Source: a virus
Lineage: Duplodnaviria > Caudoviricetes
Direction: 5' to 3' (one strand)
DNA: 61,953 nucleotides
IMG/VR virus record: IMGVR_UViG_3300021197_001137
Span: 1 to 61,953 of that record
Part shown: one piece after another, positions 19,934 to 20,590 of the stretch
Position numbering within the stretch: position 1 is the stretch's first letter
How the letters are laid out: every line of letters begins with the position of its first letter
Translations under genes and position numbers: made by a program
Notes under the pieces: generated by a model
Told to the model about the DNA's origin: nothing
Database searches by the model: none
The model's input: only the letters and a program-made list of their open reading frames with translations

Positions 19934-20137
19934 TTAATCTTGGTATCTTTTAAGTGTCATACTATTTACCTTATTAATGATTTCATTACCCACTGAAGTG
20001 AAATAACCAGGTGCATATATAGATCTTTTACCATCAGCCTCAGCGGCTAATACATCTTTTTCTGCTTCTTCGATAGCGTGTCTTAACGCTGTTTGTATGA
20101 AATACTTTTCAAATCCGTTAAATTTAGTTTTACTCAT
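19934..20137 (-). CDS. Hypothetical early protein
   Basis: ORF track; A-rich leader. Confidence 0.7.
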   Translation of the reverse strand: MSKTKFNGFEKYFIQTALRHAIEEAEKDVLAAEADGKRSIYAPGYFTSVGNEIINKVNSMTLKRYQD

Positions 20138-20157
20138 TTTATTTAATTTTAAATTAG

Positions 20158-20306
20158 TGGACGTGGCAGGAATCGAACCTGCGTTTTCAAAGGGTAATAA
20201 CTATTGAGTGTTTTTAGATTCCTGAGTTCATAACGATCCCTCGCCAGTTCACTTGCATTATCACTCGCATTACTACTCGATACTTTGAGCTAACCATTTC
20301 ACGCCC
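20158..20306 (-). ncRNA. tRNA-like / mini-tmRNA-like RNA (~149 nt) with Ala-type acceptor stem
   Basis: 5' GGGCGUG pairs with CACGUCC-A (G3·U70, discriminator A); T-arm GCAGG-UUCGAUU-CCUGC; no D-stem; long helix UCAAAG/CUUUGA, GUAAU/AUUAC, GAGUG/CACUC replaces the anticodon arm. Confidence 0.7.
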
Positions 20307-20310
20307 AAAT

Positions 20311-20530
20311 ACCCAGACATTTCCTAAGCGCGGTGCACCACTGTCGTTAAACCGGTGCGCGTCTTTGTTATTTATTCGCTGGGTTTGCTAGCTATTCACT
20401 TATGTAATTTAGGTACCATTTATCGTGGTATCTTTACGGTATATACCCACCTAAATCCTAATTAAGTTACTCGTCTAGCTATTTACGTCGCCAAGCTCTG
20501 TGAACACTAACAGATACTTTTTGGCTGACG
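20311..20530 (-). ncRNA. Three consecutive structured RNA domains upstream of the tRNA-like RNA
   Basis: Closed stems at 20486-20530, 20389-20481 and 20311-20384, separated by ~4-nt linkers; no ORF in the track. Confidence 0.55.
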
Positions 20531-20554
20531 ATAGTTATTTATTTTTTGTTCATA

Positions 20555-20590
20555 TATATTATCGTATAGGTGACGTTTTACGTTTGCAAA
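20555..20590 (-). promoter_or_regulatory. Early promoter repeat 4 (drives the non-coding RNA array)
   Basis: Consensus match, followed by ~400 nt without a long ORF. Confidence 0.75.

What the first reader, a model, noticed from the sequence alone, without database searches (positions are those of the whole stretch)
20158..20306. ~149-nt mini-tmRNA-like RNA with Ala identity and a candidate degron-less tag
Seen (minus strand): GGGCGUG/CACGUCC-A acceptor with G3·U70, canonical T-arm, no D-stem, and a long interrupted helix in place of the anticodon arm. This is the layout of the tmRNA tRNA-like domain, but it closes only a ~50-nt loop with no room for the usual pseudoknots. The loop holds GAACU-GGC GAG GGA UCG UUA UGA (20245-20228; GEGSL*). 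Known: tmRNAs are typically ~350 nt, and Bacteroidota tags typically start GE and end ALAA. Inference: a minimal tmRNA that rescues ribosomes without degradation tagging, or a decoy for SmpB/AlaRS/tRNA-targeting defence nucleases. Caveats: the 3' end reads ACUA (CCA not encoded) and the SmpB-contact GAC motifs are divergent.
Basis: partly seen in the sequence, partly recalled or inferred. Interest (0 to 1): 0.85.

Follow-up and report, generated by a model that had tools for sequence, protein, structure and literature searches.

The report
Phage tag-less mini-tmRNA carrying mobile cargo
This marine phage carries a real small RNA gene that keeps only the alanine-type, tRNA-like end of the bacterial ribosome-rescue RNA (tmRNA), with an exchangeable RNA module in its central arm; the kind is already known, and the proposed peptide tag is not supported.

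Summary
On the minus strand at 20155-20306 lie a 7-bp acceptor stem with G3·U70 and A73, a canonical T-arm, a stemless D-loop with GG, and a long helix in place of the anticodon arm. ARAGORN and Rfam at gathering score find nothing. With laxer filters the best Rfam match is tmRNA, matched at both ends only (32.3 bits, E 2e-11).

The element belongs to a family in related, probably flavobacterial, marine phages: 93 distinct sequences of 65-149 nt, of which the window's is the longest. In a sample anchored on a neighbouring protein, the stems covary (pair 4:69 is C-G, G-C or A-U) while G3·U70 is kept in 47 of 49.

The 'tag' frame is not supported. It occurs in 3 of 93 members. It sits in a 34-nt mobile module that also occurs outside the tRNA-like RNA. 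The whole 94-nt insert is a free-standing hairpin in three relatives.

The closest known case is the 'TLD only' tmRNA of mycobacteriophage DS6A. The likely role, which is inferred, is a host-matured, alanine-charged mimic that competes with host tmRNA. The window's copy lacks the GAC/GGAC motifs found in 29 of 29 sampled tmRNAs.

This scan has already noted the same kind on other DNA.

The parts
20155..20306 (-). Whole TLD-only tmRNA-like RNA gene. It is 149 nt to discriminator A73 at 20158, followed by a CUA trailer at 20155-20157.
   Evidence: Rfam tmRNA both ends, 32.3 bits. Own model R1, 73.9 bits.
20300..20306 (-). Acceptor stem, 5' strand GGGCGUG (G3 at 20304).
   Evidence: Pairs are 100% kept in 49 distinct homologues.
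20289..20299 (-). D-loop analogue without a stem (AAAUGGUUAGC) holding the GG.
   Evidence: GG is invariant in alignment A2. No D-stem in the fold.
20283..20288 (-). P2/H2 closing helix, 5' strand UCAAAG.
   Evidence: Constrained fold. All 5 modelled pairs of this helix change on both sides among relatives.
20191..20284 (-). Cargo module X: a 94-nt interrupted helix nested in P2.
   Evidence: 97.9% identical over 94 nt to free-standing copies just upstream of small TLDs in L045, L050 and L067.
20218..20251 (-). Module Y: a 34-nt conserved loop sequence at the apex of X. It holds the proposed GEGSL* frame (20228-20245).
   Evidence: Found in four different contexts. In contigs of four RNA-labelled runs it is joined to 20364-20387.
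20187..20192 (-). P2/H2 closing helix, 3' strand CUUUGA.
20166..20182 (-). T-arm GCAGG-UUCGAUU-CCUGC.
   Evidence: Three of the five T-stem pairs covary in homologues.
20158..20165 (-). Acceptor stem 3' strand CACGUCC (U70 at 20161) plus discriminator A73 (20158).
   Evidence: G3·U70 in 47 of 49 and A73 in 48 of 49 distinct homologues.
20311..20478 (-). Upstream non-coding array of structured RNA domains, probably co-transcribed. It shares modules with the TLD inserts of relatives.
   Evidence: Fold z -2.31. Module sharing. Short high-depth contigs in a metatranscriptome run.
20479..20538 (-). Remnant (last 19 codons plus stop) of the conserved 62-aa zinc-ribbon gene that precedes the array and TLD in relatives.
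   Evidence: An intact gene is found in 194 viral contigs.

Best explanation
It is a real phage gene for a tag-less, 'TLD-only' derivative of tmRNA: an alanine-type tRNA mimic made of an acceptor stem, a stemless D-loop and a T-arm. Its central helix corresponds to tmRNA helix H2. That helix carries a swappable structured-RNA cargo in place of the mRNA-like domain.

Shown: the structure, its conservation and covariation, the retained G3·U70/A73 identity set, and the mobility of the cargo.

Inferred: it is transcribed early with the upstream RNA array. Host tRNA enzymes cut it out (RNase P at the 5' end, trimming plus CCA addition at the 3' end). Host AlaRS charges it. It then engages host SmpB, EF-Tu and stalled ribosomes in competition with host tmRNA, so that tagging and rescue by the host system are blunted or replaced by tag-less rescue. 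The short frame is not a tag.
For: The best Rfam family is tmRNA, matched at both ends. The same holds for 13 of 16 small relatives' loci, at 31.5-42.6 bits. Ordinary tRNAs reach at most 28.4 bits on that model and go to the tRNA family instead.

The family is syntenic, while a flanking protein is only 36% identical at the median. In 80 loci anchored on the neighbouring zinc-ribbon protein, 55 have the RNA downstream.

Among 49 distinct sequences, acceptor pair 4:69 is C-G in 34, G-C in 11 and A-U in 4. T-stem pairs covary. G3·U70 is kept in 47 and A73 in 48. The covariation score is 0.495 against 0.113 in shuffles, reached by 0 of 500 shuffles.

A subgroup (11 of 49) has the acceptor GGGGGUG/CACCUCC and the GAC...GGA motifs, like tmRNAs from the phylum of G001. 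The CUA trailer is shared with 15 of 18 genuine tRNAs of these phages, and tRNA genes lie 3-150 nt downstream in some relatives.

Precedent: the DS6A 'TLD only' gene, and a similar molecule that strongly inhibits tmRNA, perhaps by titrating SmpB (PMC4131195 and PMC11915505, passages read). H2 points out of the ribosome like a long variable arm (PMC3968760, passages read), which would explain why cargo of any size is tolerated there.
Against: The window's copy lacks the 5' GAC and 3' GGAC that all 29 sampled tmRNAs have. Most window-type members have UAAC or AAAC at the 3' place (61 of 73).

Two window-type members have A3-U70. Paralogous tRNA-like RNAs in some relatives have G3-C70 and U73. 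Alanylation is therefore not universal in the wider group.

The score is below Rfam's gathering threshold (32.3 against 47). There is no direct evidence of the mature RNA, its ends, CCA addition, charging or SmpB binding. The RNA-run data are contigs only, and only relatives' 3' ends were seen. The phage has no SmpB and no CCA-adding enzyme of its own. The zinc-ribbon gene that accompanies the RNA in relatives is a remnant here.
Confidence: 0.6

Rival explanations
1. It is a natural 'tRNA scaffold'. The tRNA-like frame serves mainly as a processing and stabilising handle (RNase P, 3' trimming, CCA addition) for cargo modules. The biological activity would lie in the cargo and in the neighbouring array.
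For: 39 of 74 TLD inserts also occur outside any TLD in other phages. The window's 94-nt insert is free-standing in L045, L050 and L067. Module Y occurs in four contexts. The modules give the highest-depth short contigs in a metatranscriptome run (contigs only). The setting is that of a tRNA gene cluster.
Against: Processing does not need G3·U70/A73, yet these are kept while neighbouring pairs covary. 47 of 93 members carry only a small hairpin of 40 nt or less, and 43-nt forms have no cargo at all. The free-standing modules evidently do without the scaffold.
Confidence: 0.2
2. It is a decoy or sink for tRNA-directed factors other than SmpB. Examples are acceptor-end-targeting defence toxins, or AlaRS itself.
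For: The acceptor, T-arm and elbow are intact, with strong sequence conservation. The gene lies in the early region. The SmpB-contact motifs are divergent in the window type.
Against: No defence or counter-defence gene was recognised beside it. There is no anticodon arm for anticodon nucleases to act on. The idea rests on inference only.
Confidence: 0.1
3. It is a mini-tmRNA that adds the degron-less tag (A)GEGSL.
For: The frame exists. The one difference seen among its copies (GGC/GGU) is synonymous.
Against: The frame is in 3 of 93 members. It lies in a mobile module that also occurs in non-TLD hairpins. The nearest relatives lack it. A degron-like frame occurs in 1 of 93. There is no pseudoknot and no single-stranded resume region.
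Confidence: 0.03
4. It is a decayed tRNA or tmRNA, or an intron-containing tRNA.
For: ARAGORN and Rfam at gathering score find nothing.
Against: It is conserved and covarying across divergent phages. There is no D-stem or anticodon loop. ARAGORN calls none of the homologues in 60 loci. No intron family matched.
Confidence: 0.02

Closest known systems
'TLD only' tmRNA gene of mycobacteriophage DS6A (Hudson, Lau and Williams 2014, PMC4131195; Nawrocki, Petrov and Williams 2025, PMC11915505; passages read)
   Same: Phage-encoded. Little more than the tmRNA tRNA-like domain. No tag reading frame. A similar molecule inhibits tmRNA, perhaps by titrating SmpB.
   Different: The phage lineage and host phylum differ. 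The window's RNA carries a 100-nt mobile cargo in H2, sits at the end of a structured-RNA array, and lacks the GAC/GGAC motifs. No sequence comparison with DS6A was made here.
Bacterial tmRNA (Rfam RF00023), tRNA-like domain
   Same: Acceptor stem with G3·U70 and A73, a stemless D-loop with GG, a T-arm, and helix H2 leaving between the D-loop and the T-arm. CCA is usually not encoded in the sampled phylum (25 of 29).
   Different: No mRNA-like domain, pseudoknots or tag. Below the gathering score. GAC/GGAC is absent in the window's copy.
CDS-less organellar tmRNAs: mitochondrial, and ~65-bp plastid forms (PMC11915505, passage read)
   Same: Reduced to the tRNA-like domain, with no tag frame.
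   Different: They are organellar and mostly permuted. They co-occur with a targeted SmpB and carry no cargo module.
tRNA-Ala and D-armless tRNAs
   Same: The alanine identity set, the T-arm, and the CUA trailer shared with the phage's own tRNAs.
   Different: No D-stem and no anticodon stem-loop. Not called by ARAGORN. Rfam prefers tmRNA over tRNA.
Engineered tRNA scaffolds for RNA expression, and the small stable RNAs of the phage T4 tRNA cluster (both recalled; no paper read)
   Same: A cargo RNA replaces the anticodon arm of a tRNA-like frame, or stable tRNA-like RNAs are co-transcribed with phage tRNAs.
   Different: These are recollections only and nothing was tested. They have no tmRNA-type D-loop and no conserved alanine identity.

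Membership tests
tmRNA tRNA-like domain / TLD-only tmRNA | 7-bp acceptor stem formed by the 5' and 3' ends | tested here: met
   100% of cells are paired in 49 homologues, and 6 of 7 pairs change on both sides.
tmRNA tRNA-like domain / TLD-only tmRNA | G3·U70 wobble plus discriminator A73 (AlaRS identity; PMC3968760) | tested here: met
   Present in the window. G3·U70 in 47 of 49 and A73 in 48 of 49. With the 5' end fixed, U70 is found in 36 of 36.
tmRNA tRNA-like domain / TLD-only tmRNA | T stem-loop, and a reduced D-loop without a stem | tested here: met
   GG is invariant in A2.
tmRNA tRNA-like domain / TLD-only tmRNA | Helix H2/P2 leaving between the D-loop and the T-arm | tested here: met
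   All 5 modelled pairs change on both sides. 80-84% of cells are paired, against 38-52% when the partners are slid.
tmRNA tRNA-like domain / TLD-only tmRNA | 5' GAC and 3' GGAC flanking H2, as in real tmRNAs | tested here: not met
   29 of 29 sampled tmRNAs have both. The window has AGCU... and ...AAAC. The motifs are present in the GGGGGUG subgroup and in L002 and L060.
tmRNA tRNA-like domain / TLD-only tmRNA | Rfam RF00023 gathering score (47 bits) | tested here: not met
   32.3 bits. This is expected when 290 model positions are missing. It is still the best family of its clan.
tmRNA tRNA-like domain / TLD-only tmRNA | Alanylation and SmpB binding | not testable with these tools
   No RNA-protein or enzymatic test is available. 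The phage has no SmpB gene.
Full tmRNA | mRNA-like domain with a conserved tag frame, and pseudoknots | tested here: not met
   72 nt stand in place of 290 model positions. The frame is in 3 of 93 members and a degron-like end in 1 of 93.
Canonical tRNA (including intron-containing tRNA) | D-stem and anticodon stem-loop; detection by ARAGORN or Rfam tRNA | tested here: not met
   ARAGORN finds 0 in the window and calls no homologue in 60 loci. The Rfam clan winner is tmRNA.

The most novel reading that the evidence does not exclude
The H2 slot of this alanine-type tmRNA mimic is one of several interchangeable docking places for a shared library of mobile structured-RNA modules. These modules also tile the phage's early non-coding array. 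If so, the phage lineage uses a natural tRNA or tmRNA scaffold either to carry varied RNA cargo to SmpB and stalled ribosomes, or to have the cargo processed and stabilised by tRNA enzymes.
Probability: 0.2. Interest if true: 0.8.

Novelty: new variant of a known kind. Interest (0 to 1): 0.5.

Why it matters
TLD-only tmRNA genes are reported in print from one phage (DS6A). Standard annotation tools miss them: ARAGORN and Rfam at gathering score found none of those examined here.

This case shows a conserved family in uncultivated marine phages. The alanine identity pair is held fixed while neighbouring pairs covary. That is the pattern expected if the RNA is charged and meets the host translation or rescue machinery.

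The cargo swapping is the new element. The same RNA modules sit inside the tRNA-like frame in one phage and beside it in another. If the cargo is functional, this would be a natural modular RNA display system, and a lead to what the abundant early non-coding arrays of these phages do.

Tried and rejected
- **Tag reading:** rejected.
- **att-site remnant of ssrA:** rejected, because both ends of the TLD are present and the exact 3' 22-mer occurs in no bacterial tmRNA. A scan of one genome for each of 185,579 species gave 6 hits, all on MAG contigs that carry the same short element.
- **Isolated phages:** blastn of the locus found nothing. The element alone gave only short T-arm-like hits. Model R1 found only ordinary tRNAs in Cellulophaga phage phi10:1, nothing in Tenacibaculum phage JQ, and a weak unrelated-looking 27-bit hit in phage PJN03.
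- **The 627-aa ORF taken for a terminase:** it matched tail-fibre-like genes and told nothing about hosts.
- **Promoter and terminator scans:** nothing useful.
- **Neighbouring small proteins:** Pfam and PHROGs gave nothing.
- **Own SmpB or CCA-adding enzyme:** none found.
- **RNA runs:** only contigs were available. Run X20 showed no cover over the TLD scaffold (20111-20211). That is no evidence of absence, and the ends, strand and CCA could not be read.
- **Literature:** six searches found no paper on a phage TLD-only family beyond DS6A.

Full report
**What the window is.** The window is a whole IMG/VR virus record of 61,953 bp, estimated 97% complete. It has about 35% G+C. It encodes ribonucleotide reductase, thymidylate synthase, a primase/helicase, Erf, an exonuclease and a sigma factor. 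The nearest isolated relatives by primase/helicase are Cellulophaga phage phi10:1 (43% aa identity), then Tenacibaculum and Flavobacterium phages. The host is therefore probably a member of the Flavobacteriia; this is an inference.

**The observation.**
- GGGCGUG pairs with CACGUCC, giving G3·U70, followed by A73 and then CUA.
- The T-arm is GCAGG-UUCGAUU-CCUGC.
- A G-G-containing loop follows the acceptor without a D-stem.
- A long interrupted helix lies between.
- The frame GGC GAG GGA UCG UUA UGA is at 20245-20228.

ARAGORN finds nothing and no Rfam family reaches its gathering score. With laxer filters the best match is tmRNA RF00023. It covers model positions 1-374 with 290 central positions replaced by 72 nt, at 32.3 bits and E 2.2e-11, or 6.3e-13 on the whole record.

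As a control, in three MAGs real tmRNAs score 142-174 bits and ordinary tRNAs at most 28.4 bits on this model. In cmscan a genuine tRNA goes to the tRNA family at 63.8 bits.

**A family.**
- The 3' 22-mer occurs in 64 stretches of viral contigs. Every one has the matching 5' strand 46-127 nt upstream.
- In one genome for each of 185,579 species the 22-mer occurs six times, always on MAG contigs that carry the same short element rather than a tmRNA.
- In 13 of 16 small loci, Rfam again gives tmRNA with both ends matched, at 31.5-42.6 bits.
- ARAGORN calls none of the elements in 60 loci.
- The loci are syntenic. A flanking 82-aa protein found in 55 loci has a median pairwise identity of only 36%, so the phages are old relatives.

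That first sample was selected by RNA sequence and is therefore biased.

**An RNA-independent sample.** I anchored a second sample on the conserved 62-aa zinc-ribbon protein that lies just upstream. 194 viral contigs encode it, and the best 80 loci were kept. A covariance model built from 23 short members finds the RNA downstream in 55 of the 80; several of the others are cut off close to the gene.

Among 49 distinct sequences:
- The acceptor is GGGCGUG/CACGUCC in 32, GGGGGUG/CACCUCC in 11, GGGAGUG/CACUUCC in 4, and GGACGUG/CACGUCC in 1. One outlier has a different acceptor (AGUCAGA/UCUGACU).
- Pair 4:69 is therefore C-G, G-C or A-U, and T-stem pairs covary.
- G3·U70 stays a wobble in 47 and A73 is present in 48.
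- The covariation score is 0.495 against 0.113 in shuffles (0 of 500 reach it), and at most 0.091 when the partners are slid.
- The central helix P2 changes on both sides at all five modelled pairs.

A wobble pair held fixed beside a freely covarying neighbour is the signature of selection on the alanine identity element. That G3·U70 plus A73 is the AlaRS identity set is stated in PMC3968760 (passage read).

**Relation to tmRNA.** I sampled 29 tmRNAs from the phylum of G001, a MAG titled 'Bacteroidetes bacterium'.
- All 29 have GAC at the 5' side and GGAC at the 3' side of H2.
- Many have the acceptor GGGGGUG/CACCUCC.
- Only 4 encode CCA.

The phage GGGGGUG subgroup has ...UGGUUUUGAC...GGA-N-T-stem, which is nearly the host pattern. 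L002 and L060 have GAC...GGAC. The window type has diverged: UAAC or AAAC replaces GGAC in 61 of 73 distinct sequences caught by my pattern, and the window itself has AGCU... and ...AAAC.

So the family looks derived from the tmRNA TLD. The window's copy nevertheless fails one defining feature, and that feature lies where SmpB binds. That placement is recalled from memory; PMC3968760 says only that SmpB binds the elbow and that the D-loop/T-loop interactions are needed.

**The 3' end.** The CUA after A73 is not a defect. It is present in 45 of 49 homologues. Of 18 genuine tRNA genes (Met, Gln, Thr) in these phages, 15 also have N73 followed by CUA. This points to a shared maturation route with CCA added by the host (inferred). 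The phage has no CCA-adding enzyme and no SmpB of its own.

**The 'tag'.** Among 93 distinct family sequences (65-149 nt to the discriminator, median 88; the window's is the longest), the frame occurs in 3: the window, L037 and L070. A degron-like ...AA* frame occurs in 1. 47 have inserts of 40 nt or less.

The frame lies in a 34-nt module, Y (20218-20251), which is found in four contexts:
- at the apex of the long helix inside the window's TLD;
- at the apex of the same helix where it stands free (L045, L050, L067);
- directly in P2 of small TLDs (L037, L070);
- as its own hairpin with a GUUAAC stem outside any TLD (L136).

Contigs of four RNA-labelled runs show the last arrangement, with Y joined to 20364-20387 through five letters. 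The window's nearest relatives (L005, L029, L007) have a covarying 4-bp hairpin where the window has Y. A tag that also sits in non-tRNA-like hairpins cannot be a tmRNA tag.

**The cargo.** The window's whole insert, module X (94 nt), is 97.9% identical to a free-standing hairpin that lies 14 nt upstream of a 73-nt TLD in L045, L050 and L067. There it is closed by a different stem. Overall, 39 of 74 TLD inserts match sequences outside any TLD in other loci. Some relatives have two TLDs in tandem, and some have 43-nt forms without P2.

P2 is thus one slot of a shuffling array of RNA modules. This fits the geometry of tmRNA, in which H2 mimics a long variable arm pointing out of the ribosome (PMC3968760, passage read) and naturally carries about 290 nt.

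**Expression.** Only contigs were available. In metatranscriptome run X20, short contigs over the upstream array have the highest depths (20313-20381: 186; 20457-20505: 660; the module Y joint: 74), against 3-58 for neighbouring coding parts. The tool warns that such depths are a poor measure of expression. The 3' end of relatives' TLDs appears in contigs of runs X16 and X19; this is weak evidence, and DNA carry-over is possible.

**Known precedent.** Mycobacteriophage DS6A is listed as 'TLD only'. [quoted passage not shown] 2009 is known to me only as cited there). CDS-less tmRNAs also exist in mitochondria and in two plastids (PMC11915505). This scan has noted the kind many times, including a member of this same family.

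**Verdict.** The element is a real TLD-only tmRNA derivative with a mobile cargo. I put that identity at about 0.85. I put the proposed mode of action, competition with or replacement of host tmRNA-SmpB, at about 0.4-0.5, because of the missing GAC/GGAC. It is a new variant of a known kind.

Noticed in passing
window 20479-20571 (-): The conserved 62-aa zinc-ribbon protein (CxC...CxxC, basic C-terminus) precedes the RNA array and TLD in relatives and is encoded in 194 viral contigs. In the window only its last 19 codons remain; upstream of the remnant the 5' context reads as it does upstream of the intact gene's ATG in L045. It has no Pfam or PHROG family. The only Atlas lead is zf-dskA_traR at 0.88.
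   Followed up: partly
window 20311-20478 (-): A non-coding array of structured domains lies directly before the TLD (fold z -2.31). One three-way-junction domain resembles the TLD insert of L013, L015 and L020, with compensatory changes. Short contigs of a metatranscriptome run cover parts of it at depths of 186 and 660.
   Followed up: partly
window 20481-20530 (-): The retained 3' end of the zinc-ribbon gene folds as a hairpin (CGUC.GCC.../...GGC.GACG). This hairpin is also present in the intact genes of relatives, so the stretch may serve both as coding sequence and as the first RNA domain.
   Followed up: no
window 20218-20251 (-); L037, L070, L136, L045, L050, L067: Module Y is a near-invariant sequence of about 33 nt presented on four different closing stems. 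This looks like a conserved loop (a binding site or an antisense seed) rather than a helix. Its target is unknown.
   Followed up: partly
L061 12692-12788, L065 102-198, L046 2373-2466; L041 7471-7513, L069 147-189: Some relatives carry paralogous D-stemless tRNA-like RNAs with other identity sets: A1-U72, U73, and G3-C70 in 2 of 3. There are also 43-nt forms without a central helix. All end in N73-CUA.
   Followed up: partly
L009 5601-5675, L036 6269-6342, L054 2102-2176 and 14 other loci: Genuine tRNA genes (mostly Met-CAT) lie 3 nt to 1.6 kb from the TLD in 17 of 60 loci. 15 of the 18 tRNAs have N73 followed by CUA instead of CCA. The window itself has no tRNA gene.
   Followed up: yes
L060 79-161 and 162-260; L071 5388-5478 and 5545-5650; L025; L048: Two TLD-type genes lie in tandem in some phages, with a free module between them in L071.
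   Followed up: no
L175 (phage vB_RanS_PJN03 22674-22754): A weak 27-bit match of the family model falls on a roughly 130-nt tRNA-like stretch with a different acceptor stem. Its nature was not resolved.
   Followed up: no
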